From a virus: 64,000 nt of DNA. The notes under the pieces are model-generated. The model did not search any database. It had not been told where the DNA came from and saw only the letters and a list, made by a program, of their open reading frames with translations. The stretch lies in IMG/VR virus record IMGVR_UViG_3300045988_177154, positions 32,001 to 96,000 of that record. One strand, 5' to 3'. This document shows, one piece after another, positions 18,502 through 63,969 of the stretch (within the stretch, counting starts at the first letter, position 1; each line of letters starts with the position of its first letter). Made by a program: the position numbers and the translations under genes.

Positions 18502-18945
18502 TTAAACAGTTGTAGAAATTTCTTGCACATTTTTACCGAAGTAAATTTCTAATCGTTCTTTTCCTTGTACTTCTTCAAGGGTAGTTTCTTGTAATTTATT
18601 TTCGTAATCGCCATCAAATGGAACATAAATAAGTTCATTTGAACTGTCACTGTAAAAAATTTCCAATGCAACAATATCTGAATGTTTTGTTACCCGTTCA
18701 TAAGCATTGTATTCGCCATTAGAGAAAGAAGTTCGTCTAGCTTTGAGATTTTCTGCATCGAAAATGAGCAAAGCATCTTTAGCTACCAGAGATTCTTTTC
18801 TAAGAACTTGATTTTCTGATTGCCAAATATCTATGTGTTTATCTAATCCAGCAAAATTAGCTTCAATTAAATCTGTTGCTGATAAGATGATTGTTTCGCA
18901 ATTTTCTAGTATAAGTTCATAGCTTGTTACTGATTTTTCGTTCAT
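18502..18945 (-). CDS. hypothetical protein, paralog family E (2 of 2)
   Basis: Paralog of 18077-18484. Confidence 0.6.
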   Translation of the reverse strand: MNEKSVTSYELILENCETIILSATDLIEANFAGLDKHIDIWQSENQVLRKESLVAKDALLIFDAENLKARRTSFSNGEYNAYERVTKHSDIVALEIFYSDSSNELIYVPFDGDYENKLQETTLEEVQGKERLEIYFGKNVQEISTTV

Positions 18946-39162: not shown

Positions 39163-39310
39163 ATTGTTGCTTACATCTGTAACTTATTGTAATAATGAAT
39201 AAGTGAGTTGTAAGGTAATACCTCATGTAGAGGACGAACTCCTAATTCAACTTGAACCGTTGAATCAAGTACATTCGTTAGAAATGACACAATTTGACCA
39301 TTTCCTTTAA
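39163..39310 (-). ncRNA. candidate omega-RNA scaffold overlapping the 3' end of the TnpB-like gene
   Basis: Position is typical for TnpB omega-RNA. A second non-coding copy with compensatory hairpin changes exists at 52353-52491. Confidence 0.5.
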
Positions 39311-40667
39311 GCTTATTTACTTTTTCCTTAATTTCTTTTTTATTTGATTTTGGTTTAACTCTTTTAGTCTTTGCCTTTTTTGGTAAAGATTTTTTGAGCT
39401 TAATATTAGTAGAACGAATCGCAATATTGATAGCAGCTAATAAATCTCTATCAATTTTACCAGTCGTAAATTCAATAGTTCTATCATTAACTACTCCTAT
39501 TTCTTTCGTTATTGGGTGCTCCTTACTAGTATTAAATGCAGAAACCTTTTTTACCTCAATTCCATACATAGTGGCTTTCTCTATAATTTTAGAATGAATT
39601 TGAGAATGATTCCATTTACCACCTTGTGAATTTAACCAAGATAAATCTTCAATATGAATTGTTTTACACTTCTGCTCTAATGCTAAATTTACAATTTCGT
39701 TTGACAAAAGCTTTGCTTGATAATCTTTTGTGTTAATAATTTTATTAGAAATATTTGAATAAAGATTTTTCCAAATTTCATATTTAGATTGATTTGTTAA
39801 CCTTAAAGCTTCATAAGATTTAAGTTTATCATATAAGATTTGTTTATTTTCATAAAGTTTATTGATTTTATATTCTGTTTCTTGGCTTCGTTTTGTGTTG
39901 ACAAATTCATTACTGAAATTACCTTTTCTATCAACAACAACAGAACTAAATAATTTAATTTTACCTATATCCACACCTAAGATTTTATCTTCTAACACAT
40001 AATCCCCCACTTCATATTCATAAGAGCAAATACCTATATATTGATTATCTCTTTTACGTTTAATAAATCTAGGCTTCGCAATTCTGCCTGTAAATCTTTC
40101 ATCTATACTACTTGGAAAGATTATTTCATATTCAATCCAATCTTTTTTGCTCACTTTTATTTCACAAATATTACCTTGTTTCATTCTGAATATTTGCTTT
40201 TCTGAAATAGTATAATCAAGATTGAATACAGCGCTTCGTGCTAATTCGGGTATGGAATTATTACGTTTAATATTGGCAATTCTACTTCTTGTTGGGTAAA
40301 GTTTTAATTTGTGTAATGAATTAAATAAATCTTCATTTATGTTAAAATCATTTTTAACTAATTGATTCCAAATGATGATTGCTTCTTGTTTTGACTTTAT
40401 TTCTCGTCTGATGTTTTCAAACAAGATATACGAGTGCCAGGTTTTATTATGCAACGGCCAGTCTTTTATTCGGAATTTAAGACTATCCCTCATATCCCTC
40501 CAAACATCGCCTCTGAGTTTAGATAAATCAATTTTATCCAAGAGAGCTCTTGTTTCATCATTAGAGAGAATAAAATTTAACTCATTTTGTAAGAAATCAT
40601 AAATAGGTATAAGTTCTGATGGCATATTTATATTAAAACTTTTCCAATGAACTTTTTTCTTTTTCAT
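39171..40667 (-). CDS. tnpB: TnpB-like RNA-guided nuclease homolog lacking the zinc-finger cysteines
   Basis: RuvC-I ILGVDIGK, RuvC-II TIHIEDLS and RuvC-III KIDRDLLAAINIA. The segment between AFNTS and DRD has no Cys. Lys-rich tail follows. Confidence 0.8.
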   Translation of the reverse strand: MKKKKVHWKSFNINMPSELIPIYDFLQNELNFILSNDETRALLDKIDLSKLRGDVWRDMRDSLKFRIKDWPLHNKTWHSYILFENIRREIKSKQEAIIIWNQLVKNDFNINEDLFNSLHKLKLYPTRSRIANIKRNNSIPELARSAVFNLDYTISEKQIFRMKQGNICEIKVSKKDWIEYEIIFPSSIDERFTGRIAKPRFIKRKRDNQYIGICSYEYEVGDYVLEDKILGVDIGKIKLFSSVVVDRKGNFSNEFVNTKRSQETEYKINKLYENKQILYDKLKSYEALRLTNQSKYEIWKNLYSNISNKIINTKDYQAKLLSNEIVNLALEQKCKTIHIEDLSWLNSQGGKWNHSQIHSKIIEKATMYGIEVKKVSAFNTSKEHPITKEIGVVNDRTIEFTTGKIDRDLLAAINIAIRSTNIKLKKSLPKKAKTKRVKPKSNKKEIKEKVNKLKGNGQIVSFLTNVLDSTVQVELGVRPLHEVLPYNSLIHYYNKLQM

Positions 40668-40794: not shown

Positions 40795-41145
40795 TTACCT
40801 CATAACAACTTCACAAATAATAACTTCTTCGCCATTATCAAAGTCAAAATCATCTTTGTATGGTAAGAATAAGTAAGAATCAGTACTATTATCGTAGTAA
40901 TATTGAGACTTCATATTGAATAGAATAATTAAGAGTTCTGTAATTTTATTCTTTGATTCATTTTGAATTTCAAGTTTGGATTGGTTTGTAACACCAATAT
41001 TATCAAAAGAGTAATTATAGATAGTAAAGTTAGAATGATGATTAACTTTATTTTTTAAGTATTCATAATTATCTTTATTGAAGTCTTTAATTTTAGATAG
41101 CGGAAAATTCAAGACTAAGTTTAATGTTTCTTCTTTAATTTTCAT
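40795..41145 (-). CDS. hypothetical protein, intact paralog of pseudogene 38957-39160
   Basis: Start set at MKIKEETL (AGAGGA RBS 8 nt upstream). Confidence 0.55.
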   Translation of the reverse strand: MKIKEETLNLVLNFPLSKIKDFNKDNYEYLKNKVNHHSNFTIYNYSFDNIGVTNQSKLEIQNESKNKITELLIILFNMKSQYYYDNSTDSYLFLPYKDDFDFDNGEEVIICEVVMR

Positions 41146-41749
41146 TATACCAATCCTCTTTAAAGTTATTTTCACCTTCACTAAATCTTACAGATTCAAA
41201 ATGTCCTTGAACGAGTTTTCTTACATAAAAATCATATTTATCCATAGGGAAGCTATTAACAGGTCGAACTACAAAACCTTCAATATCTTCAGTCAGATTA
41301 GCAGTAGCTTCTTTTACTACTTCATCAAATGTTCCAACCTTTGATAATTCTTTTACAATTGGGATTCCAAGTTCTTTAGCTCTTTTCTTAGTTGTTTCCC
41401 AATCTAAGATTAAATCATCTTCTTTAATTCCAAATAGCATATAATCAGATGGTAAATCATTATAAGGAACAGATTTTCTCCAATGAAGAAATTCTCCAAG
41501 TACAACTTCATTATCTTTTAATTTATCTTTAATTGGATAGTACCAATTGTTGATTGGATAAGTCCATTCTTTATTGTAATTATTGCCAGCTCTTGTAAAC
41601 CAAGTTTCTTTTCCTAAAGAAATATTAGAACCGTCCATTTTTTCAGTAGCAATTACTAAACCGTCATATCTATAATGATTTTTAAAGACATCATCATCTG
41701 TACCCTTTGACCCTTTCATATGAGGAGTTCTAGGAAATTTAAAAGTCAT
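41135..41749 (-). CDS. ATP-dependent RNA ligase (Rnl2/PF09414-like)
   Basis: FPRTPHM near the N-terminus. Motif I is EKMDGSN. Confidence 0.7.
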   Translation of the reverse strand: MTFKFPRTPHMKGSKGTDDDVFKNHYRYDGLVIATEKMDGSNISLGKETWFTRAGNNYNKEWTYPINNWYYPIKDKLKDNEVVLGEFLHWRKSVPYNDLPSDYMLFGIKEDDLILDWETTKKRAKELGIPIVKELSKVGTFDEVVKEATANLTEDIEGFVVRPVNSFPMDKYDFYVRKLVQGHFESVRFSEGENNFKEDWYNEN

Positions 41750-43771: not shown

Positions 43772-44731
43772 ATGACTAAAACAATTAAAGGATTTATTAA
43801 AACTTTCAACAAGCACGAATTAGGAAAAGAATACAGCAAAACAAATTCTTATTTAGCTGATGCTATTAGATTTGAATTAAAAGATGTTTACAATGCTGGT
43901 TCAGATTATTCTATCATCTATCCATACATTTATGAAGTAGAAGCTAATGTTGAAGATGTTTGGAACATTTCAAAAGGACAAACATGGTTGCCTGATTATT
44001 TCCAAACTACAAAAGCTGTTGCAGTTCGTGAAGTCTCATATTTAGAATTAGTACAAGCTATTGATTTAACTTCTTCAACAAAAGAAAAATTTGAAAAAAT
44101 CTATAATGGCGATTTAACTAAAGAAGAATTTGAAACTACTTGGGCTTCTTTAACTAAGAGAAGTTTTGAAGCATTGGGCCACAATCAACGTTTTCTATAT
44201 ATTGCTTGTTTATCTCAAGATAAATATGAATTAACAAAACCTGAAAAGGAATTGTCAGAAACAACTTTAATGCTTCATGCAAAATATGGTAAATTGTTTA
44301 ATAAAGATTTACGAGTAAGTTCAAAAGTCAAAATGAACATTGCAACAGAAAATGAAATCATTAACGCTCTTGAAACAGACTTATTTGATGTTCCAAACAT
44401 TCTTGAAAATTTAGTTGAAACAGAAAATTATGATTTTGATTTTGTTCTTAAGTTATTAAAAGAATCAAATTACTTAATTTTTAATAAATTAACAACAGCT
44501 TATGGATATAACACTGGTCGTTGGGAATTTGATAAAATTGATACTAACAGAGCTAAAGCAGAATCTTATTTAAATCCAATTAAAGCTTTCAATGATTACA
44601 AAGACCATGAAGAGTTAATCTTGAAAGGATTATTATTGAATAACTTTTTAATCAAAGGAGCAGATTATTCAGAATTTGAATCTATTCTAAAAATTAAAGA
44701 AGAATTAGAAGTGGAATTAAAAACTTTATAA
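43772..44731 (+). CDS. divergent member of paralog family F
   Basis: Shares the PYIYEVEANVEDV block and overall length with family F. The rest is diverged. Confidence 0.55.
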   Translation: MTKTIKGFIKTFNKHELGKEYSKTNSYLADAIRFELKDVYNAGSDYSIIYPYIYEVEANVEDVWNISKGQTWLPDYFQTTKAVAVREVSYLELVQAIDLTSSTKEKFEKIYNGDLTKEEFETTWASLTKRSFEALGHNQRFLYIACLSQDKYELTKPEKELSETTLMLHAKYGKLFNKDLRVSSKVKMNIATENEIINALETDLFDVPNILENLVETENYDFDFVLKLLKESNYLIFNKLTTAYGYNTGRWEFDKIDTNRAKAESYLNPIKAFNDYKDHEELILKGLLLNNFLIKGADYSEFESILKIKEELEVELKTL

Positions 44732-44788
44732 GAAAAGAACAACCTAATGGTTGTTTTTCTTATGTCAAAAAAGAAAGGAGTTATTAAA

Positions 44789-45784
44789 ATGATTATTGAT
44801 TGTTATGTGTTTTCAGATGTAGCACTCAAACTAAATCACACTTATTATAACATTGATGATTACAAATTACTATTATATAACTTAAAGGATTATCGAGTTG
44901 ATTCGTTTTCAATCTTTACTTTTATTTATAAAGTAAAAGTAAATTCAGATGATGTACATTATCTTGGTAAATATGGAGTATATTCACTTAAGTATCAAGT
45001 AGTAGAAGAAGTTCCTTTTGGAGATTTTGTAGCAAAACTTTCACTTGGGGGATTAGAAAAAGCTGGACTAATGTCTATTATCAAAGGTACTATGCCCGAA
45101 GATAAAGCTATTAAAAAATATGAAGATATTCTAACTCTAAATAAGTATGGGTATTCATTAACTTTTATTCAAGCCCTCAAATTTCATGCTATACTAAGCC
45201 AAAAGAAATATGAACTACCAATCCTTTATGTAGATGAACAAGGTTGGTATTTAGTTAGATTATTTGAATATTACAATAGAAAATATGAAGCAAAAAATAC
45301 TTTGTCAAATTCTACTAATCATTGTGTAGAACAAGAAAGGATATTAGGTTCAAAAAAATTTGAGGAACATTTTGACATTCAAAATGCTACACTTGCGAAT
45401 GAAAGAGAACTTCAGACTTTTTATGATTTAATAAAAGGAAGAAAGCTAACACAAGAGAAATTTGAGCAGTGTTGTGCTGAATTTATGAATTTATTAGACG
45501 ATGATTATAGAAAGGAATATTTAGCAAAAATAGTTGTATTTTCCAATTATGAAATACCTGAAAAGTATAAAGATATATTTTTACCAGAAGCTGTATTTAA
45601 ATACCCAGATTGGATAAAAGACTTAAAAGAAGAGCATATCTCTTGGCAATATGCTGATGTAACAAGATTCCTTATGATTGGATATAAAGTGAAAAATGGT
45701 AATTACAACCTAGAATGGGCAAATTCAATTATGAATGCTAGAAGCATTTTAAAGAACGACAATTACAAATATATAGAAATTTAA
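44789..45784 (+). CDS. paralog family F protein
   Basis: MIIDCYVFSD start (AAAGGAG RBS). Family blocks are present. Confidence 0.7.
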   Translation: MIIDCYVFSDVALKLNHTYYNIDDYKLLLYNLKDYRVDSFSIFTFIYKVKVNSDDVHYLGKYGVYSLKYQVVEEVPFGDFVAKLSLGGLEKAGLMSIIKGTMPEDKAIKKYEDILTLNKYGYSLTFIQALKFHAILSQKKYELPILYVDEQGWYLVRLFEYYNRKYEAKNTLSNSTNHCVEQERILGSKKFEEHFDIQNATLANERELQTFYDLIKGRKLTQEKFEQCCAEFMNLLDDDYRKEYLAKIVVFSNYEIPEKYKDIFLPEAVFKYPDWIKDLKEEHISWQYADVTRFLMIGYKVKNGNYNLEWANSIMNARSILKNDNYKYIEI

Positions 45785-45792
45785 TTTAAAAA

Positions 45793-45820
45793 AGCAACTA
45801 AAAAGTTGCTTTTTATTTTT
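45793..45820 (+). terminator. intrinsic terminator
   Basis: AGCAACT-AAAA-AGTTGCT plus a T run. Confidence 0.75.
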
Positions 45821-45833
45821 TTACAAAAATGTG

Positions 45834-45862
45834 TTGACAAACTAAAAATCATATTATATAAT
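45834..45862 (+). promoter_or_regulatory. sigma-A type promoter
   Basis: TTGACA-17-TATAAT. Confidence 0.8.
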
Positions 45863-45901
45863 ATAACTACAATAAAGAAATGAAATGAGAGATAAACAAA
45901 A

Positions 45902-46681
45902 ATGGAAATTGCAAAACAATACCACGCAAAAATCAATACAGCCGGAGTTGCTTCAGCTTATAATATTTCTACTGTAACTCGAACTCTTAGCCAGGCAGTA
46001 AAAGATGCTAATCTTGCACTTCATTCAGTAGAAGTACTAACAGAAGTTCCAACAGATAACAAATTAAAAGCAGAAGTACTTGCTGCTCATACTTATCGAG
46101 TAACATGGCAAGGAAAACTAGACATTGAAGTGATTCTCCTTGTTAAATTAGTAAATGGTGCTCAAGTACTAACTATTGATGATGATTTTGCTAATATTGA
46201 ATTGACTAATTCAATTACTATTGAACCACAAGGGCTTATCCGTATGGTTGAAAATGGTGAATTATTCCTTGAAGCTGAATACCAACGTGGATTTGTTTGG
46301 AGCCACGAACACAAAGAAGAATTTTTGCTGGATTGGATTAAAGGTGGAGTTATTATTACTCCTTACCTTGTAAGTTATTACAATGGTGATAACCACATTT
46401 ACGAAGTTCTTGATGGCAAACAACGTTTACAAACAGTTTATGAATTTCTAACAAACAAAATTGCTGTTAAAGGATTGTTGTTTGAAGAATTGCTAGACTA
46501 TGATAAACGCAAAATCCTTAATCGTAGAATTGTAGGCTTGACTATGACTCAAAAATATGGTGACAACGCATATGAGCGCCCAGACATGAAAACTCTTGTA
46601 AATGCTTTCGTGAATTTCAATAAAGGAATTACAGTTGATGAAGAAGTAATCGCCAAAGCAAAAGAATTGATTGAAGAATAA
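45902..46681 (+). CDS. DUF262 / ParB-like nuclease-superfamily domain protein
   Basis: EYQRGFVW ... VLDGKQRLQT is the DUF262 (GmrS-like) signature. No DUF1524/HNH half. Confidence 0.65.
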   Translation: MEIAKQYHAKINTAGVASAYNISTVTRTLSQAVKDANLALHSVEVLTEVPTDNKLKAEVLAAHTYRVTWQGKLDIEVILLVKLVNGAQVLTIDDDFANIELTNSITIEPQGLIRMVENGELFLEAEYQRGFVWSHEHKEEFLLDWIKGGVIITPYLVSYYNGDNHIYEVLDGKQRLQTVYEFLTNKIAVKGLLFEELLDYDKRKILNRRIVGLTMTQKYGDNAYERPDMKTLVNAFVNFNKGITVDEEVIAKAKELIEE

Positions 46682-46704
46682 GCAACCCCACGGTTGCTTT
46701 TTTC
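46682..46704 (+). terminator. intrinsic terminator
   Basis: GCAACC-CCAC-GGTTGC plus a T run. Confidence 0.7.
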
Positions 46705-46753
46705 TTTTAAAAGTTATATAATATAATAAAGAGCGAAAGAAAGAGGTATGAAA

Positions 46754-47743
46754 TTGTTTATTGATTGTTATTTCTTATCAAACATTGTTAGAAAACCTGA
46801 CCATATTTACTATACTAATTATGATTATATGTTTGGCGAATTTTTCTATTTTGATTTAAACCTTTGTAATTTAGACAATATACGTTTTAACACGTACCCT
46901 TATAAAGTTAGAGTTGACTCAAATGATGTGTTTTATATTGCTAATAATGGCTTAAGAGCACTCAAATTTCAAATAGTAGAAGAAGTTAATATTTTAGATT
47001 GGATTGAAGCTTCATCTTTGAAAGATAGAGCAAAGAGTCATTTGAAATCAATTTGTAATGGTTCTGTACTTCAAGATAAAGTGTTAGAATTTTATGATAA
47101 AACTATTATAACTCCAACTGCTTTATTGACTACAGCTCAAATTTTTAAATTGCATGCTATTTTGAGCCAGAAAAAATATGAATTGCCTACAAGAGTAATC
47201 ACTAATGGAAATAAAAGCTATTTGCGAGCTTATGAATTTTATGGCAGAGAATATGAATTTGATTCTAATCATAAACCTTTTTTCAAAGTGTTTGAAGCTG
47301 AAGCTGCCTTGGGGTCTAAAAGATTTGAATATATTGAAAATGAAGATAGTGAAATCCTTATGTCAGATGTGTCAAGTTTTTTAAAATTAGTAGCATCAAG
47401 AAAATTAACTCAAAATCAATTTGAGTATTGTTGTATGTACAGTCCTTTTTTAACTACAGCTGACAAAAAGAAATTTGTTAATACAGCATTACGAGCAAAT
47501 TATGAAATTCCTCATGAGGGCAGACACTTATTCTTTCCCGAAATCATATTTAAACACCCAAGTTGGGTAACAGAATTAAAGACGAAACATTTAGACAATG
47601 ATTATGCTAGAGCTAGATTACTCTTGTTAGGCTATAAATTGAAAGATTATAATTATCATCATTCTTATTGGGCTACTAATATTGAAAACACTAGACGAAT
47701 TTTTAAAAATGCCGTGTATCAATATATAGAACTTGATGATTAG
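46754..47743 (+). CDS. paralog family F protein
   Basis: TTG start 7 nt after AAGAGG gives (M)FIDCYFLS, aligned with the other family N-termini. The ORF-track ATG at 46748 is only 1 nt from the RBS. Confidence 0.65.
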   Translation: MFIDCYFLSNIVRKPDHIYYTNYDYMFGEFFYFDLNLCNLDNIRFNTYPYKVRVDSNDVFYIANNGLRALKFQIVEEVNILDWIEASSLKDRAKSHLKSICNGSVLQDKVLEFYDKTIITPTALLTTAQIFKLHAILSQKKYELPTRVITNGNKSYLRAYEFYGREYEFDSNHKPFFKVFEAEAALGSKRFEYIENEDSEILMSDVSSFLKLVASRKLTQNQFEYCCMYSPFLTTADKKKFVNTALRANYEIPHEGRHLFFPEIIFKHPSWVTELKTKHLDNDYARARLLLLGYKLKDYNYHHSYWATNIENTRRIFKNAVYQYIELDD

Positions 47744-47759
47744 ATAGAAAGAGAAAACT

Positions 47760-48740
47760 ATGAAAATTAAATGCTATTTATTTACAGGTATAGCAAAACA
47801 AGAAAATCATACTTATTATTCATTAGGAGATAATCGAGGTTCAAGATTTTATTATAATTTGAGAGAGGGACTCAATAGAGAAGAAATTAAAATAGCTCCA
47901 TTTGTTTATGAAGTAGAGTTAGACTCAGAAGATATATGTACAATTACTTCTTATTATTTAGAAACAACAAAATTTAAATTAGTAAGAGCAGTTGAATTTA
48001 GAGAAGTTGTAGAAGTTTTAGATGTTTCAAGTAGAACTCGAAACGAATTGAATGCTATCCTTAGATGTGTGAGTGATAAAGCACAAATCATTCAACAATA
48101 TAAAAAATTGCTTTCAAAAGATTATAGTGATTTATCTAGGATAGAGTTTTATAAATTTATTGCTATTATAAGTCAAAAACATTATAAATTACCACTAATT
48201 GAATTTTCTTGCTTTAGAGCATTTAAATATGTTCGGCTATTGGAATTTTATAATCAGCCACATAGATATGCTCTTGCTGGAAGGGGTTATAGTTTTGTAG
48301 CTTATAATAAAGAAAAATTTTATGGAAGTAGAATATTTGAAAATCTGTCAGATTGTACTATAAATGATTTGCTTAGAGAACACGATATTAGGGTACTTTT
48401 ACAGACTAGGAAATTGTCGCAGAAAAAATTTGAAGAATATTGTGAATATAAGTTTAAAAATAAAGATAAGATTTATAATGCAGATGAATGTGTGGGGGCT
48501 GGATATGAAATTCTACCAAAATATAAAGAGCAATTCTACCCCTATATAATCTATTCTAATCCTGAGTTAGCATTAGATTTGGTAAAAAAAGGCTTGAGCA
48601 CCAATGATTATCAAACTTTATTACTTTTAAGAAAAGGATATAAAATCAGAGATTTTGATTATGATAATAATTATAGAGTCTTTGCTACAACACAAAAAGC
48701 CCAAAAGATTTTCATGAAAAATGATTATAAATATATTTAA
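47760..48740 (+). CDS. paralog family F protein
   Basis: MKIKCYLFT start. Family blocks are present. Confidence 0.7.
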   Translation: MKIKCYLFTGIAKQENHTYYSLGDNRGSRFYYNLREGLNREEIKIAPFVYEVELDSEDICTITSYYLETTKFKLVRAVEFREVVEVLDVSSRTRNELNAILRCVSDKAQIIQQYKKLLSKDYSDLSRIEFYKFIAIISQKHYKLPLIEFSCFRAFKYVRLLEFYNQPHRYALAGRGYSFVAYNKEKFYGSRIFENLSDCTINDLLREHDIRVLLQTRKLSQKKFEEYCEYKFKNKDKIYNADECVGAGYEILPKYKEQFYPYIIYSNPELALDLVKKGLSTNDYQTLLLLRKGYKIRDFDYDNNYRVFATTQKAQKIFMKNDYKYI

Positions 48741-48757
48741 GAGAAAGGATAAGAATT

Positions 48758-49741
48758 ATGGCTGTTAAATGCTATTTATTTACAAGTGTGGCTAGACAAT
48801 TAAATCATACTTATTACTCATTAGAATATAATAAATCTTTATACTTTTACCATAATTTAAATGATTATCATAAAGAAGTGAATAAAATTCTATTAAATCC
48901 CTTTGTTTATGAAGTAGAAGTTGAGCCTAAAACAGTGATTGCTTGTGATTCCTTAGGTTTAGTTGCAACGGAATTTAAACTTGTTAGAGAAGTAGAACTT
49001 ACAGAACTTATCAATGCTTATAAATTTTCAATAAAAACGAAAAATGAAATCAATTCTATTCTTAATGGGCTTGCTGATTCATCAGAAGTAATTTCTTTAT
49101 ATAAAAGATTTTTTAAAAAATCTAAATGGGACCTGTCTAAAATTGAAAAATTCAAATTCTTAGCTATATTGAGTCAAAATCACTATAAATTACCTGTTAT
49201 GAAGATTCGTGAAAATTCTGGTATGGAATATGTTAGGATATTGAAATTCTTTAACAAACCTTACATACCCGCCTTTAGAAGCAATGATAGTACGTTTGAT
49301 AGATTTATTGAAATAGAAGAACTTTATGGAAGCAAAGATTTTGAAACTGGTGTAGAATTACCTATGAAAGAACTGGTTTGCCATATTAACTTGAAACAAT
49401 ATATAGAAACAAGGAAATTATCCCAAGAACAATTTGAAGAGTATTGTGAATATATGTTTACTGAAGAAAGAACAATATATTACACTTCTCATGCTATAGC
49501 AGCTGGATATAAAATTTTACCAAAATACAAAAAACATTTTTATCCATATTTAATTTATTCTGACCCCGAAATGGCATTAGAATTGCTTAATAAAAGGAAT
49601 TTAACTCGTACTGCAGTTATTTATTTCTATGAAAAGAATTATAAAATAGGTGATTACAATTACTCTAATGATAAAGTTAGAGAAACAAAAGCAATCTTTG
49701 TAAAAGAAGATGATTATAAATGTATTGAAGTAGCAACTTGA
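48758..49741 (+). CDS. paralog family F protein
   Basis: MAVKCYLFT start. Family blocks are present. Confidence 0.7.
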   Translation: MAVKCYLFTSVARQLNHTYYSLEYNKSLYFYHNLNDYHKEVNKILLNPFVYEVEVEPKTVIACDSLGLVATEFKLVREVELTELINAYKFSIKTKNEINSILNGLADSSEVISLYKRFFKKSKWDLSKIEKFKFLAILSQNHYKLPVMKIRENSGMEYVRILKFFNKPYIPAFRSNDSTFDRFIEIEELYGSKDFETGVELPMKELVCHINLKQYIETRKLSQEQFEEYCEYMFTEERTIYYTSHAIAAGYKILPKYKKHFYPYLIYSDPEMALELLNKRNLTRTAVIYFYEKNYKIGDYNYSNDKVRETKAIFVKEDDYKCIEVAT

Positions 49742-49797
49742 TAGTTGCTTTTTCTTTTTGTTTATTATATAATATAATAGAGCGAAAGGAGTTAATT

Positions 49798-50781
49798 ATG
49801 ATTATAAAATGCTATTTGTTTTCAGATAGAACTAGACAATTAGGTCATACTTATTATTCATTAGGAATGGGAGATTATTTGTATTTTGAGCTTAGCTCAT
49901 ACCAAGATTATTTTCACATTGGTGACCCATTTGTTTACGAAGTAGAAGTTGATACAGACAAAATATTGTATTGTGATAGTGAAAGTGTACACTCTATTGA
50001 GTACAAGATAAGTAGAGTAATCAAATTTGAAGAATATATTTTTACGTTTGAGTTTCCAAAAGATGATTTAAAAGAATTACTTAATATACTTGATGGAAAT
50101 ATTGACAAAAATGAAATGATAGAATTTTATACTGCAATCATTAGTAAAGATGTTTACAAAGTAAATAGGTTTGAGCAATTAAAACTTTTTGCAATATTAA
50201 ATCAAACAAAATATGAGCTGCCAGAAGTAACAATAGAAAAAGAATTTCAAATGGATTACTATGTTAAGCTTTTAATTTATTACAATAAACCTTATCAAGC
50301 TATTTGTAAACATTCCGCCAAAATTTCTGGGTTTAGAAAAGAACTTAATAAGCAGAGAATGCGGGGAACTACTACTTTTGAAACAATTTCAGATGAAATC
50401 ACCGAAAGATTAGCTTATAATTATTTTTTAGATGAATATATACTAAATAGACAACTTACTCAAGAACAATTTGAAAGTTTATGTGAGTACTTCAAGTGGA
50501 ATACACATATTTTTAAATTTAGAATAAAACTTAGTTCAATTGCAGCTGGTTACAAAATTCTACCAGAACATAGAAGTCTTTTTTATCCTTTTGTGCTTTA
50601 TCATGGAATAGAAGATAATTTGGATATAATTGACCGTGAGAAAAAGCCTGATGAATTATTAAAGATTTTATTTAACTGCGGTTATAAATTTAAAAATGTT
50701 GATTATAGCGACATGCCTTCACATGATAAAATTACTGAAGCAAAAATCATCTTTCAAAAAGGATTTAAATATATAGAATAA
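49798..50781 (+). CDS. paralog family F protein
   Basis: Start moved to MIIKCYLFS (AAAGGAG RBS). Confidence 0.7.
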   Translation: MIIKCYLFSDRTRQLGHTYYSLGMGDYLYFELSSYQDYFHIGDPFVYEVEVDTDKILYCDSESVHSIEYKISRVIKFEEYIFTFEFPKDDLKELLNILDGNIDKNEMIEFYTAIISKDVYKVNRFEQLKLFAILNQTKYELPEVTIEKEFQMDYYVKLLIYYNKPYQAICKHSAKISGFRKELNKQRMRGTTTFETISDEITERLAYNYFLDEYILNRQLTQEQFESLCEYFKWNTHIFKFRIKLSSIAAGYKILPEHRSLFYPFVLYHGIEDNLDIIDREKKPDELLKILFNCGYKFKNVDYSDMPSHDKITEAKIIFQKGFKYIE

Positions 50782-62422: not shown

Positions 62423-62451
62423 TTGACACATAATTTTTGATATGATATAAT
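62423..62451 (+). promoter_or_regulatory. sigma-A type promoter P3 directly upstream of tRNA-Leu
   Basis: TTGACA-17-TATAAT, preceded by TTTCAAAAACCTA. Confidence 0.8.
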
Positions 62452-62840: not shown

Positions 62841-62912
62841 TGACCTGTAGCTCAATGGTAGAGCATCCGGCTGTTAACCGGAAGGTTGTGGGTTCGAGTC
62901 CCACCGGGTCAG
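62841..62912 (+). tRNA. tRNA-Asn (anticodon GTT)
   Basis: TGACCTG/CGGGTCA acceptor stem. D arm GCTC-AATGGTA-GAGC. Anticodon arm TCCGG-CTGTTAA-CCGGA. T arm GTGGG-TTCGAGT-CCCAC. Confidence 0.9.
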
Positions 62913-62923
62913 TTAAATTAACT

Positions 62924-63072
62924 TAATGAGCGATACGTTTTATTCCGAATGACCTCCTTAATAAATTTCGGGATTTATCCTCCTTTCATACAACACACGT
63001 TAAATTTTTACTTTTCTAATGAAAGTAAAGAAAAGTAAAAAATATTCTTTCATTGTTTTGTATCGCTCGTTA
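62924..63072 (+). ncRNA. candidate structured RNA closed by a 13-bp long-range helix, with two CCUCCUU motifs
   Basis: TAATGAGCGATAC (62924-62936) pairs with GTATCGCTCGTTA (63060-63072). Internal hairpins are ATTCCGAA...TTCGGGAT, displaying ACCTCCTTA, and TTTACTTTC-TAAT-GAAAGTAAA. Confidence 0.35.
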
Positions 63073-63187: not shown

Positions 63188-63246
63188 TAGGCACAAACAG
63201 CAACTACTCACACTTTCTATTTGGCAGAAAAAAGATGAGGTGCCTA
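63188..63246 (+). ncRNA. tRNA-like mini-unit U1 (terminal helix plus anticodon-arm-like hairpin, loop ATTTGGC)
   Basis: TAGGCAC pairs with GTGCCTA. A-A-ACAGCAA motif follows the 5' strand. Hairpin TTTCT-ATTTGGC-AGAAA at 63214-63230. Confidence 0.4.
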
Positions 63247-63264
63247 GTTTATACATTTTATACA

Positions 63265-63339
63265 TAACGACATACAGCAAGAATTTTTTAATAACGAAAC
63301 AGACTCCAAATCTATTTTTTCATTTTTAAAAAGTCGTTA
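63265..63339 (+). ncRNA. tRNA-like mini-unit U2 (loop CTCCAAA)
   Basis: TAACGAC pairs with GTCGTTA. ATACAGCAA motif. Hairpin ACAGA-CTCCAAA-TCTAT (one mismatch) at 63299-63315. Confidence 0.4.
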
Positions 63340-63351
63340 GAGTTATATAAT

Positions 63352-63426
63352 TAGTGACACACAGCAATTCTTCAAACTTAGGAACAAAACGTCATTTTGT
63401 AATTACTAAAATAAGAATCGTCACTA
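63352..63426 (+). ncRNA. tRNA-like mini-unit U3 (loop ACGTCAT)
   Basis: TAGTGAC pairs with GTCACTA. ACACAGCAA motif. Hairpin ACAAA-ACGTCAT-TTTGT at 63384-63400. Confidence 0.4.
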
Positions 63427-63451
63427 GATTAAATAATTTTTTTGAATATAT

Positions 63452-63513
63452 TAGTGGCATACAGCAACTCTACTATGGAATGGACTTTTAATCTGTAACC
63501 CAAGAGGCCACTA
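63452..63513 (+). ncRNA. tRNA-like mini-unit U4 (loop CTTTTAA, identical to the tRNA-Lys anticodon loop)
   Basis: TAGTGGC pairs with GCCACTA. ATACAGCAA motif. Hairpin ATGGA-CTTTTAA-TCTGT at 63480-63496. No D or T arm. 62 nt in total. Confidence 0.4.
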
Positions 63514-63540
63514 GATTATATTAGATTAAATTGAATATGT

Positions 63541-63650
63541 TAGTGGCAATCAGCAATTCTTGTCAAACCAGAGGGTTGTGGGTTCGAGCCCCACCGGTTC
63601 AATTGAACCGTAGCTCAATTGGTAGAGCATCAGGCATAAAACAGCCACTA
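63541..63650 (+). ncRNA. tRNA-like unit U5 enclosing a circularly permuted tRNA-like cloverleaf
   Basis: TAGTGGC pairs with GCCACTA. AATCAGCAA motif. Inside, a tRNA 3' half (CCAGA-GGGTT-GTGGG-TTCGAGC-CCCAC-CGGTTCA) is joined by AT to a 5' half (TGAACCG-TA-GCTC-AATTGGTA-GAGC-A-TCAGG). Confidence 0.45.
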
Positions 63651-63662
63651 GATTTTTATTTT

Positions 63663-63734: not shown

Positions 63735-63969
63735 TTAAATTTATATTTTATATTAAATTGGTTGTCCTTGAGATGTAGGTTCAAATCCTGTACTGGCCGC
63801 CGGGTCGGTTATTTTAATTGGTAAAAATACAAGTAGGCATTAAATGAATTGAGAACTGGCACTTCCTTTCATACAATTTAATATAAGGTGATTCGACCGC
63901 CAATCGAATCATTTCTAGTCTTGGGTGACTACATATAAGAAGCTTCTAACTCAAGACTATTTTTAATAA

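What the first reader, a model, noticed from the sequence alone, without database searches (positions are those of the whole stretch)
63541..63650. Circularly permuted tRNA-like cloverleaf embedded in unit U5
Seen in sequence: inside the TAGTGGC/GCCACTA helix the order of tRNA parts is inverted. A 3' half (CCAGA-GGGTT-GTGGG-TTCGAGC-CCCAC-CGGTTCA, 63568-63601) is followed after 2 nt (AT) by a 5' half (TGAACCG-TA-GCTC-AATTGGTA-GAGC-A-TCAGG, 63604-63634). Both halves resemble the genuine tRNA-Asn at 62841-62912. The acceptor pairing is maintained by a compensatory change: Asn has TGACCTG/CGGGTCA, and here it is TGAACCG/CGGTTCA. CGGTTCAATTGAACCG is a perfect 16-nt palindrome. The would-be anticodon stem (TCAGG with CCAGA, one A-A mismatch) becomes the stem that connects the cloverleaf to the U-family scaffold, and there is no closed anticodon loop. 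Established knowledge: permuted tRNA genes are known in the red alga Cyanidioschyzon merolae and a few other algae, where a circular intermediate is made by the splicing endonuclease and ligase. I am not aware of bacterial or phage examples. Inference: this could be a permuted pre-tRNA matured with the help of the two RNA ligases and end-healing enzymes encoded in this window. It could instead be a tRNA-shaped decoy with a capped acceptor end, or a recombination product of two tRNA fragments.
Basis: partly seen in the sequence, partly recalled or inferred. Interest (0 to 1): 0.8.

Follow-up and report, generated by a model that had tools for sequence, protein, structure and literature searches.

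The report
Phage Y-RNA-like tRNA mimic (YrlA type)
The "inverted tRNA" is real and conserved, but it is not a tRNA precursor: it is a small phage RNA of the Y-RNA kind, in which a tRNA-shaped body without an anticodon sits on a conserved stem that in other phages lies next to the gene of a Ro60-like RNA-binding protein.

Summary
At 63541-63650 a 7-bp terminal helix encloses a T arm, a capped acceptor hairpin and a D arm, in that order. There is no anticodon loop. Both halves are about 88% identical to the phage's own tRNA-Asn.

The permuted pre-tRNA interpretation is not supported. This layout defines YrlA-type bacterial and phage Y RNAs. Rfam YrlA matches full length (42 bits, E 1.5e-7), below its gathering score.

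The element is conserved in three related jumbo phages with compensatory changes. Equivalent elements occur in unrelated phages, where 24 of 27 pairs covary.

U5 is the fifth of five tandem units sharing "7-bp helix, 2-3 nt, (A/U)CAGCAA". This replaces the CGAA motif of canonical Y RNAs. In 66 of 69 phage loci such units lie beside a DUF2828+vWA gene. A predicted structure of that protein matches Ro60 best. Cultured Felixounaviruses have the same units inside their tRNA array.

No Ro60-like gene lies within 63 kb upstream or 8 kb downstream of the array; the remaining ~244 kb of the 325-kb genome could not be read.

Verdict: a new variant of a known kind, most likely a Ro60-paralogue-bound tRNA mimic. 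Its target is unknown.

The parts
63541..63650 (+). Unit U5: complete Y-RNA-like element with tRNA-like domain (110 nt)
   Evidence: Rfam YrlA match 63540-63654, full length, 42.1 bits, E 1.5e-7. Own model R1 scores 141 bits here and finds equivalents in other phages. Conserved in L003, L004 and L005.
63541..63547 (+). Terminal helix H1, 5' strand (UAGUGGC)
   Evidence: Pairs with 63644-63650. L004 has TAGTGAC/GTCACTA, a G:C to A:U double change. All 7 pairs covary across phages.
63550..63556 (+). Conserved single-stranded motif UCAGCAA (ACAGCAA in U1-U4)
   Evidence: Present at the same offset (2-3 nt after H1) in all five units and in units of unrelated phages. Predicted unpaired in U1-U4.
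63568..63572 (+). Anticodon-stem equivalent, 5' side in the RNA (CCAGA, tRNA positions 39-43)
   Evidence: Pairs with 63630-63634 and keeps a central A:A mismatch. L005 has G:U. L004 keeps the mismatch as A:C. The same central mismatch occurs in L052a. All 5 pairs of this helix show a change on both sides in some sequence, and the central pair is unpaired in 5 of 7.
63573..63577 (+). Variable-loop equivalent GGGUU (U48 can form the Levitt pair with A15)
   Evidence: Read directly from the sequence. The A15:U48 option is described for YrlA in PMC4201824.
63578..63594 (+). T arm GUGGG-UUCGAGC-CCCAC
   Evidence: 100% paired across family members.
63595..63610 (+). Capped acceptor stem (AS hairpin): CGGUUC-AAUU-GAACCG
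   Evidence: Folds as 6 bp plus a tetraloop. L004 has UAGUUC/GAACUG, with G:C to A:U and C:G to U:G. All 6 pairs covary across phages.
63611..63628 (+). U8-A9 and D arm GCUC-AAUUGGUA-GAGC
   Evidence: A14, A15 and G18G19 are present.
63630..63634 (+). Anticodon-stem equivalent, 3' side in the RNA (UCAGG, tRNA positions 27-31)
63635..63643 (+). 3' linker CAUAAAACA
   Evidence: CAUAAA recurs in the unrelated L052a unit.
63644..63650 (+). Terminal helix H1, 3' strand (GCCACUA)
63188..63246 (+). Unit U1 (same scaffold: TAGGCAC-AA-ACAGCAA ... GTGCCTA)
   Evidence: The identical helix sequence occurs in a unit next to the DUF2828 gene of L097.
63265..63339 (+). Unit U2 (TAACGAC-AT-ACAGCAA ... GTCGTTA), with a hairpin whose loop is CUCCAAA
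63352..63426 (+). Unit U3 (TAGTGAC-AC-ACAGCAA ... GTCACTA), with hairpin ACAAA-ACGUCAU-UUUGU
   Evidence: The loop differs in relatives: CUUCAAA in L005 and CUGCUAA in L004.
63452..63513 (+). Unit U4 (TAGTGGC-AT-ACAGCAA ... GCCACTA), with a mimic of the tRNA-Lys(UUU) anticodon stem-loop, AUGGA-CUUUUAA-UCUGU
62841..62912 (+). tRNA-Asn(GUU), the likely progenitor of the U5 tRNA-like domain
62423..62451 (+). Promoter-like site TTGACA-17-TATAAT, a candidate start of the tRNA and U-unit transcription unit
   Evidence: 12 of 12 consensus match with TG. This is a consensus match only.
63792..63809 (+). Terminator-like hairpin plus T run after tRNA-Phe
   Evidence: This is a consensus match only.

Best explanation
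U5 is a non-coding RNA of the Y-RNA kind and the counterpart of bacterial YrlA.

Anatomy (shown). The 5' and 3' ends pair in a 7-bp helix. A single-stranded (A/U)CAGCAA motif follows on the 5' side. The interior folds into a tRNA body: T arm, acceptor stem closed by a loop, and D arm, with all elbow and core tertiary nucleotides. The anticodon loop is replaced by the connection to the scaffold. The body was derived from the phage's own tRNA-Asn.

Context (shown). U5 is one of five tandem units on the same scaffold.

Transcription and processing (inferred). The units are probably co-transcribed with the flanking tRNAs and cut out during tRNA processing.

Mechanism (inferred). The helix plus the CAGCAA bulge is the binding site of a Ro60-like ring protein of the DUF2828+vWA family. 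The tRNA-shaped module then presents a tRNA surface to a tRNA-recognising partner, either a host enzyme or a tRNA-targeting defence nuclease. It could act as a tether, as Y RNA tethers Ro60 to PNPase, or as a decoy.

Status of the steps.
- Shown: the anatomy, its conservation and covariation, the family, the genomic linkage of the family to DUF2828 genes, and the Ro60-like predicted fold of the one DUF2828 protein modelled.
- Inferred: binding, processing, and the identity of the target.
For: - Rfam YrlA matches full length, E 1.5e-7. The layout V-T-AS-D inside a 5'/3' stem is the published definition of YrlA (PMC4201824).
- U5 is conserved in L003, L005 and L004 (96-82% nt identity) with compensatory changes in H1 and in the AS hairpin.
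- Model R1 finds equivalents in unrelated phage contigs L052, L010 (two), L096 and L103. On these, 96.1% of cells pair against 64.6% in shuffles, 24 of 27 pairs change on both sides, and slid controls give 31-45%.
- CAGCAA units lie on the gene strand in 66 of 69 DUF2828 loci, mostly within 150 nt upstream. There are 107 units on the gene strand and 6 on the other.
- Arrays of units occur next to the gene in divergent lineages L097, L104, L155, L167 and L103.
- DUF2828 against phage TROVE/Ro60 by hhalign gives 97.5% probability and E 6.6e-12.
- The AlphaFold model of a DUF2828 protein has Ro60 structures as its five best PDB matches: 1yvr, 9kop, 9nep, 2nvo, 9l5y. E ranges down to 4.7e-8 and TM is about 0.5.
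- In this sample, YrlA-like RNAs next to true TROVE genes carry other 5' motifs and none carries CAGCAA.
- In the cultured Felixounavirus GEP101, the DUF2828 gene is followed by a tRNA array whose gaps hold four CAGCAA units. One of them is a full permuted cloverleaf.
- The Felixounavirus Bas63 Ro60-like gp130, which also sits upstream of its tRNAs, counters the ppl defence (PMC11482910).
Against: - No TROVE, DUF2828 or vWA gene lies within 63 kb upstream or 8 kb downstream of the array. About 244 kb of the 325-kb genome could not be read.
- The Rfam score is below the YrlA gathering score (42 against 69 bits), and most of it comes from the generic T and D arms.
- The canonical Ro60-binding motif GNCGAA is absent.
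- No expression, end-mapping or binding data exist for any CAGCAA unit.
- The alignment used for covariation was fitted to the model.
Confidence: 0.7

Rival explanations
1. A free-standing tRNA decoy. U5 and U1-U4 act without any Ro60-like protein. They would be stable RNAs that titrate host tRNA-targeting nucleases or tRNA-modifying and tRNA-binding enzymes. The terminal helix and CAGCAA would serve only for stability or processing.
For: No Ro60-like gene was seen in 81 kb around the array. In L010, L052 and L096 the units also sit away from any visible DUF2828 gene. U2-U4 and many family members display anticodon-stem-loop mimics of Lys, Asn, Ser and Tyr types. From my own knowledge, Lys, Asn and Tyr are tRNAs attacked by known anticodon nucleases; I know of no such nuclease for Ser. 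The window encodes an RNA-repair gene set.
Against: A strictly conserved single-stranded CAGCAA at a fixed offset from a covarying helix across unrelated phages looks like a protein-binding site. The linkage to DUF2828 genes is very strong where contigs allow a test. The loci lacking the gene are short fragments of larger genomes.
Confidence: 0.17
2. A processing or punctuation element. The tRNA-like fold recruits RNase P, RNase Z or the CCA-adding enzyme to cut the polycistronic tRNA transcript. The units have no function of their own.
For: The units lie inside a tRNA operon between a promoter-like and a terminator-like site. M. smegmatis YrlA is cleaved by RNase P (PMC4201824).
Against: U1-U4 lack a tRNA body yet share the scaffold. 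The flanking tRNAs carry their own processing determinants. The family also occurs directly upstream of DUF2828 genes outside tRNA arrays.
Confidence: 0.05
3. A circularly permuted pre-tRNA. The two halves are rejoined through a circular intermediate by the phage RNA ligases to give a functional tRNA.
For: The 3' half precedes the 5' half. Two RNA ligases and end-healing enzymes are encoded in the window.
Against: There is no anticodon loop anywhere in the unit. Joining the outer ends would only close the CAGCAA scaffold. The acceptor is already closed by a loop. The same scaffold carries non-tRNA modules in U1-U4. In L097 and L018 the tRNA-like members are in normal order and still lack an anticodon arm.
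Confidence: 0.03
4. An inert relic. U5 is a one-off recombination product or pseudogene of two tRNA-Asn fragments.
For: About 88% identity to the resident tRNA-Asn.
Against: It is conserved in four genomes down to 82% nt identity with compensatory changes. Independent equivalents exist in unrelated phages.
Confidence: 0.03

Closest known systems
YrlA (Rfam RF02553), the tRNA-like Y RNA of Salmonella, Mycobacterium and mycobacteriophages (Chen et al. 2014, PMC4201824)
   Same: Size of about 110 nt. A 5'/3' closing stem with an internal loop. The order variable region, T arm, closed acceptor-like hairpin, D arm. tRNA tertiary nucleotides including the A15:U48 option. Occurrence together with shorter sister Y RNAs (YrlB).
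   Different: The 5' motif is (A/U)CAGCAA, not GNCGAAN0-1G. The second helix of the Rfam model is absent. The score is below the gathering threshold. No TROVE gene lies nearby. The family's linked protein is DUF2828+vWA, not Pfam TROVE. The tRNA body is clearly a recent derivative of the phage's own tRNA-Asn.
Phage Ro60 with Y-RNA-like Yrl1 and Yrl2 of Thermus phage phiLo (PMC12135203)
   Same: Phage-encoded Y-like RNAs next to a Ro60-type ring protein. They were proposed to hijack a host RNA enzyme.
   Different: The phiLo RNAs carry the CGAA motif, and that paper does not use the terms tRNA-like or YrlA. The protein there is a canonical TROVE Ro60.
Felixounavirus Bas63 gp130, a Ro60-like anti-defence protein (PhageMaP preprint, PMC11482910)
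   Same: A Ro60-like protein directly upstream of the phage tRNA stretch. The authors conjectured that some of the 'tRNAs' are Y RNAs. In the Felixounavirus GEP101 I find four CAGCAA units, including a permuted cloverleaf, in that stretch.
   Different: The RNAs were not identified in that work. That gp130 is the DUF2828 orthologue is my inference from genus and gene position. The window phage is unrelated to Felixounavirus: its PIF1-like helicase, the one protein compared, has no GenBank phage match above 28.5% identity.
Circularly permuted tRNA genes of Cyanidioschyzon merolae and other algae (from my own knowledge)
   Same: The 3' half is encoded upstream of the 5' half.
   Different: Those genes contain every tRNA part, including the anticodon loop, and mature into decoding tRNAs through a circular intermediate made by the eukaryotic/archaeal splicing machinery. 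U5 has no anticodon loop and a permanently capped acceptor.
Deinococcus radiodurans Yrn1 and the Ro60-Y RNA-PNPase (RYPER) complex (as summarised in PMC4201824)
   Same: A Y RNA whose effector module tethers the Ro60 ring to another RNA enzyme. Yrn1 also has T-arm and anticodon-arm-like features, as several CAGCAA units do.
   Different: Different motif, different module order, bacterial rather than phage.

Membership tests
YrlA-type Y RNA (Rfam RF02553; Chen et al. 2014) | Reaches the Rfam gathering score of the YrlA covariance model | tested here: not met
   42.1 bits against 69. The alignment is full length (1-114) with E 1.5e-7 in 1.6 kb and 9.5e-7 in 10 kb. It is not listed at gathering threshold.
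YrlA-type Y RNA (Rfam RF02553; Chen et al. 2014) | 5' and 3' ends form a stem that encloses, in order, a variable region, T arm, closed acceptor-like hairpin and D arm | tested here: met
   Covariation supports every helix.
YrlA-type Y RNA (Rfam RF02553; Chen et al. 2014) | tRNA core and elbow nucleotides that allow tertiary pairs (U8:A14, 15:48 Levitt pair, G18G19 with psi55 C56, T54:A58) | tested here: met
   U8, A14, A15 with U48, G18G19 and UUCGA are all present in the sequence. Actual folding and modification are not testable here.
YrlA-type Y RNA (Rfam RF02553; Chen et al. 2014) | GNCGAAN0-1G (CGAA) motif near the 5' end, the presumed Ro60 contact | tested here: not met
   The 5' region reads UAGUGGCAAUCAGCAAUUC, and all five units carry (A/U)CAGCAA instead. 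Some YrlA-like RNAs next to TROVE genes in phage loci carry CGAAG (for example L042 and L011); others carry UUACUUC or GAGCCCAA.
YrlA-type Y RNA (Rfam RF02553; Chen et al. 2014) | Encoded within about 4 kb of a Ro60/TROVE gene on the same strand | tested here: not met
   There is no PF05731, PF11443, PF25043 or vWA hit between contig positions 18935 and 100087. The rest of the genome could not be read.
YrlA-type Y RNA (Rfam RF02553; Chen et al. 2014) | Bound by Ro60/Rsr in vivo | not testable with these tools
   Needs immunoprecipitation or EMSA.
   The pattern gives 3 matches in the window against 0.01 expected.
   There are five units at 63188-63650. ASL-like hairpins occur in 56 of 127 distinct units against 6.9 expected. 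T-AS-D modules occur in L010, L052, L096, L103 and GEP101.
   Absent from the 81 kb examined. About 244 kb remain unread. In 66 of 69 other loci the gene and units are adjacent.
Circularly permuted tRNA gene (Cyanidioschyzon type) | The 3' half is encoded upstream of the 5' half | tested here: met
Circularly permuted tRNA gene (Cyanidioschyzon type) | The two halves together contain every tRNA part, including a 7-nt anticodon loop | tested here: not met
   There is no anticodon loop. Positions 27-31 and 39-43 lead into the scaffold. ARAGORN finds no tRNA.
Circularly permuted tRNA gene (Cyanidioschyzon type) | Circular intermediate and re-opened acceptor end giving an aminoacylatable tRNA | not testable with these tools
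   Needs circular-RNA RT-PCR. The acceptor is closed by a conserved tetraloop.
Tandem tRNA genes (a known false positive of YrlA searches) | The T arm and D arm belong to two separate complete tRNAs | tested here: not met
   No complete tRNA lies on either side. The two acceptor strands pair with each other across 2-4 nt.

The most novel reading that the evidence does not exclude
The five units are members of an undescribed and widespread phage RNA family. The family has a fixed CAGCAA scaffold, read by a Ro60 paralogue (DUF2828+vWA), onto which phages graft interchangeable tRNA parts. Those parts include anticodon stem-loops whose middle anticodon base toggles between Asn, Ser and Lys types in near-identical phages. 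They also include whole tRNA bodies, found in both circular permutations: ends at the scaffold, as in U5, or ends at the acceptor, as in L097 and L018. The resulting RNP would bait, titrate or help repair damage from host defences that target tRNAs. This would explain why a Ro60-like gene of a Felixounavirus behaves as an anti-defence gene.
Probability: 0.35. Interest if true: 0.85.

Novelty: new variant of a known kind. Interest (0 to 1): 0.62.

Why it matters
Y RNAs with a tRNA-like domain are known, but what the tRNA mimic is for remains an open question. This element matters for three reasons.

1. It places the mimic in a phage tRNA and RNA-repair context. It also shows that the mimic was copied from the phage's own tRNA-Asn.
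2. It belongs to a large family with a different recognition motif. The family is linked to a Ro60 paralogue found in 697 GenBank phage records, including Felixounaviruses, KVP40-like vibriophages, and Listeria, Staphylococcus and Campylobacter phages.
3. Sister units display bare anticodon stem-loops of tRNA types that include known anticodon-nuclease targets (Lys, Asn, Tyr).

Together these points make the function of Y-RNA tRNA mimicry testable in cultured E. coli phages. The test would be phage counter-defence or RNA repair against tRNA-targeting immunity. These RNAs are also currently unannotated, or may be mistaken for tRNA fragments, in phage genomes.

Tried and rejected
- BLAST of the U array and of 24 kb of the window against GenBank phages found nothing except tRNA-Asn. 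There is no cultured close relative: the helicase is at most 28.5% identical.
- Walking along the 325-kb contig to look for a Ro60-like gene was blocked, because only window proteins may be looked up. I therefore covered only contig positions 18935-100087.
- A targeted scan of IMG/VR with a DUF2828 alignment returned 69 loci.
- MAFFT alignments of divergent units misplaced the terminal helices. I used a covariance model instead.
- Sequence searches of DUF2828 proteins against PDB gave no Ro60 hit. Only profile-profile and fold comparison did.
- A literature search for DUF2828 gave nothing relevant.
- A guessed accession for Bas63 turned out to be Bas51.
- A search for any other protein shared by loci that carry the units found only DUF2828.
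- A MIDAS-motif scan of window ORFs found no vWA candidate.
- One scaffold-pattern hit, L102, lies in a coding region and is a chance match.
- I considered a TnpB guide RNA, because a TnpB-like gene lies at 39171-40667. I rejected it on distance (23 kb) and on the family's linkage to DUF2828.
- I considered permuted tmRNA. I rejected it because there is no tag reading frame and no ARAGORN call.
Full report
**1. The observation**

- A 7-bp helix, TAGTGGC/GCCACTA, encloses CCAGA-GGGTT-GTGGG-TTCGAGC-CCCAC-CGGTTCA. Two bases (AT) follow, then TGAACCG-TA-GCTC-AATTGGTA-GAGC-A-TCAGG.
- The order is therefore variable loop, T arm, acceptor 3' strand, acceptor 5' strand, D arm.
- The two strands of the would-be anticodon stem (CCAGA and UCAGG, with one A:A mismatch) lead outward to the terminal helix. 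There is no anticodon loop.
- The acceptor strands form a 16-nt palindrome that folds as 6 bp plus an AAUU loop.
- ARAGORN and Rfam call four ordinary tRNAs nearby (Leu, Asn, Lys, Phe) but none here.
- The two halves are 30/34 and 27/31 identical to the phage's tRNA-Asn(GUU). This is far closer than to any of the 21 other tRNAs of the array that were compared.
- The fold is more stable than shuffles, with z about -3.1 to -3.4.

**2. What it resembles**

A permissive Rfam scan gives one non-tRNA match. It is a full-length alignment (model positions 1-114) to RF02553 YrlA, "Y RNA-like", at 63540-63654. The score is 42.1 bits with E 1.5e-7, below the gathering score of 69.

YrlA RNAs were defined by Chen et al. 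2014 (PMC4201824). Their features are:
- about 100 nt in length;
- 5' and 3' ends paired;
- a GNCGAAN0-1G motif near the 5' end, thought to contact Ro60;
- an interior that folds as variable region, T arm, a closed "acceptor" hairpin and D arm.

In other words, a tRNA whose acceptor is capped and whose anticodon arm is replaced by the Ro60-binding stem. They were reported next to Ro60 (TROVE) genes in 254 bacteria and 22 phages. The "inverted order" is thus the hallmark of a known RNA class, not a novelty in bacteria or phages. All nucleotides needed for the tRNA tertiary pairs are present in U5: U8, A14, A15 with U48, G18G19 and UUCGA.

**3. Genomic setting**

- The window is part of a 324,989-bp metagenomic contig, a jumbo phage with 29% G+C.
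- U5 lies in an array of 22 tRNA genes that also holds a GOLLD RNA just beyond the window end.
- A perfect sigma-70-type promoter match at 62423-62451 and a terminator-like hairpin at 63792-63809 bracket tRNA-Leu, Asn, Lys, the five units and tRNA-Phe. These are consensus matches only.
- The window also encodes two RNA ligases, a zeta-toxin/AAA_33-type kinase, an HD_4 domain protein and a HAD phosphatase. This is a typical RNA-repair set.

**4. Conservation**

Three IMG/VR jumbo-phage contigs are related: L003, L005 and L004, at 95.5, 88.9 and 82% nucleotide identity over the region. U5 is present in all three.

In L004:
- the terminal helix is TAGTGAC/GTCACTA (G:C to A:U);
- the acceptor hairpin is TAGTTC/GAACTG (G:C to A:U, plus C:G to U:G);
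- the central mismatch of the anticodon-stem equivalent is kept as A:C.

This rules out a one-off rearrangement.

**5. The scaffold family**

U5 is the last of five tandem units: 63188-63246, 63265-63339, 63352-63426, 63452-63513 and 63541-63650.
- All share a 7-bp terminal helix. The motif (A/U)CAGCAA follows it after 2-3 nt on the 5' side.
- The motif is predicted single-stranded in U1-U4.
- This is not the CGAA motif of canonical Y RNAs.

An IMG/VR scan with the scaffold pattern found, besides the relatives, an unrelated 59-kb phage contig, L103. L103 has two units. One of them has T arm, AS hairpin and D arm in U5 order and gives a weak YrlA hit. A 579-aa ORF with weak DUF2828/DUF7788 similarity and a MIDAS motif lies immediately upstream.

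A separate scan for a T arm followed closely by a D arm yielded many phage loci. At least ten of them carry true TROVE/Ro60 genes next to YrlA-like RNAs. Several others carry strong DUF2828+DUF7788(vWA) genes. Upstream of the DUF2828 genes, on the same strand, lie arrays of CAGCAA units. L097 has five and L018 has three.

**6. Linkage to a Ro60-like protein**

- With a DUF2828 alignment I fetched 69 further phage loci. Of these, 66 have at least one CAGCAA unit on the gene strand, nearly all within about 150 nt upstream of the start. There are 107 units on the gene strand against 6 on the opposite strand. Many of these loci are close relatives of each other. At least seven divergent lineages still show the linkage: L097, L104, L105, L155, L167, L103 and the L018 group.
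- In this sample, YrlA-like RNAs next to TROVE genes carry UUACUUC, CGAAG or GAGCCCAA and none carries CAGCAA. This is what co-evolving protein-RNA pairs would give.
- DUF2828 is related to Ro60. hhalign of DUF2828 against phage TROVE proteins gives 97.5% probability and E 6.6e-12 over the C-terminal half.
- An AlphaFold model of the L097 protein (pLDDT 76, pTM 0.72) has as its five best PDB matches Xenopus Ro60, the phiLo phage Ro60 (two entries), a Ro60-RNA complex and D. radiodurans Rsr. These matches run over the full length, with E down to 4.7e-8 and TM about 0.5.
- GenBank annotators already call some of these proteins "Ro-like RNA binding protein". The family occurs in 697 cultured-phage records.

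**7. Cultured-phage counterpart**

In the Felixounavirus GEP101, the DUF2828 gene is followed directly by the tRNA array. The gaps of that array hold four CAGCAA units. The last one folds by free energy alone into a complete cloverleaf, with anticodon-like arm, T arm, capped acceptor and D arm, closed by the scaffold.

A preprint on the Felixounavirus Bas63 reports three things: gp130 is Ro60-like in structure, it sits upstream of the tRNAs, and it counters the ppl defence. The authors only conjecture that some "tRNAs" are Y RNAs (PMC11482910). That gp130 is the DUF2828 orthologue is my inference. I found no paper in the searchable library that describes these RNAs.

**8. Structure support**

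I built a covariance model from the four U5 orthologues. It finds full-length matches in unrelated contigs: L052 (64.8 bits), L010 (two), L096 and L103.

On that alignment:
- 96.1% of cells form standard pairs, against 64.6% in shuffles;
- 24 of 27 pairs show changes on both sides;
- sliding the 3' partner by 1-3 columns drops pairing to 31-45%;
- the central pair of the anticodon-stem equivalent is unpaired in five of seven sequences, so the mismatch is itself conserved.

Caveat: the alignment was fitted to the model. One weak hit (L005 12447-12557) may be a different element.

**9. What is missing**

No TROVE, DUF2828 or vWA gene exists between contig positions 18935 and 100087. That span runs from 63 kb upstream of the array to 8 kb downstream of it. 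About 244 kb of the genome could not be inspected. The partner protein is therefore inferred from the family, not shown for this phage.

**10. Mechanism**

*Shown.*
- U5 is a conserved, covarying, tRNA-Asn-derived tRNA body without an anticodon, carried on a scaffold.
- The scaffold's family is genomically tied to a protein family, one member of which has a Ro60-like predicted fold.

*Inferred.*
- The helix plus the CAGCAA bulge binds that protein.
- The tRNA-shaped module engages a tRNA-recognising factor, either as a tether or as a decoy.
- The units are released from the tRNA transcript by the tRNA-processing machinery.

Three observations point to conflict over tRNAs. The sister units present anticodon stem-loop mimics. 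The genome carries RNA-repair genes. The Felixounavirus gene has an anti-defence phenotype. The target itself is unknown.

The permuted pre-tRNA idea fails because no anticodon loop exists and the acceptor is permanently capped. The recombination idea is probably right only as history.

**11. Verdict**

- The main interpretation is not supported, but the "capped tRNA-shaped decoy" alternative is close.
- The element works like a YrlA-type Y RNA. It fails three formal YrlA criteria: gathering score, CGAA motif, and an adjacent TROVE gene.
- It belongs to a distinct CAGCAA-scaffold class linked to the DUF2828 Ro60 paralogue. I could not find this class described. I rate it a new variant of a known kind.

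Noticed in passing
window 63188-63513 (units U1-U4); also L052 1148-1211, L096, L103 6171-6236, L018 2106-2162: The shorter units on the same scaffold carry hairpins with a 5-bp stem and a 7-nt loop of anticodon-loop form (C-U-NNN-A-A). U4 has CUUUUAA (Lys-UUU type), U2 has CUCCAAA, and U3 has ACGUCAU. Across 127 distinct units, 56 have such a hairpin against 6.9 expected from shuffles. This count includes about 17 units whose hit is wholly or partly a T arm. The commonest loops are CUGUUAA (Asn), CUGCUAA (Ser) and CUUUUAA (Lys).
   Followed up: partly
L106-L172 (about 80-kb phage group), unit about 2857-2914 upstream of the DUF2828 gene: In otherwise near-identical units the middle anticodon position toggles (GCU, GUU, UUU), while the stem covaries (CAUAA/UUAUG against UAUGA/UCAUA). 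This looks like diversifying selection on the displayed anticodon. U3 of the window group shows the same behaviour between relatives.
   Followed up: partly
L097 4441-4557 and 4562-4687; L018 1979-2100: These are tRNA-like members of the same family in normal tRNA order. The acceptor is formed by the RNA ends, and the anticodon arm is replaced by an arm that carries ACAGCAA and a capped distal helix. They are the circular permutation of the U5 topology. ARAGORN does not call them.
   Followed up: partly
L001 17392-17845 (window-equivalent about 68689-69142, beyond the window end): A GOLLD RNA (Rfam RF02032, 156 bits, above the gathering score of 150) with an embedded tRNA-like call lies in the same tRNA array as the units.
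   Followed up: no
window 62423-62451 and 63792-63809: A perfect TTGACA-17-TATAAT promoter match with TG, and a terminator-like hairpin. Together they bracket four tRNAs and the five units, which suggests one transcription unit.
   Followed up: no
window 62928-62936 with 63060-63068; about 62983 and about 63866; 63889-63911: Other unexplained structured spacers in the tRNA array. A 9-bp long-range helix, GAGCGATAC/GTATCGCTC, encloses 123 nt between tRNA-Asn and tRNA-Lys. A CCTTTCATACAA motif is repeated. There is also a 10-bp hairpin.
   Followed up: no
window 63736-63810 (L005 12447-12557): A T-arm-like hairpin (GUAGG-UUCAAAU-CCUGU) lies right after tRNA-Phe and before the terminator-like site. 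The U5 model gives a weak hit to the L005 counterpart (29.5 bits).
   Followed up: no
window 43772-50781: A run of six ORFs. Five are of similar size (319-347 aa) with no Pfam match; whether they are paralogues was not tested. A 259-aa GmrSD_N protein is interspersed. An N6_N4 methyltransferase gene lies upstream.
   Followed up: no
window 39171-40667 (-): A TnpB-like ORF of 498 aa (Cas12f1-like TNB domain) lies in a jumbo-phage genome, next to a short RNA ligase gene (41135-41749).
   Followed up: no
L069 3615-4130; L035 3800-4240; L042 7080-7325: Phage loci with true TROVE/Ro60 genes also carry arrays of two to four Y-like RNAs. Each array has its own 5' motif (GAGCCCAA, UUACUUC, CGAAG). This suggests several co-evolving Ro60/Y-RNA recognition classes in phages.
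   Followed up: partly
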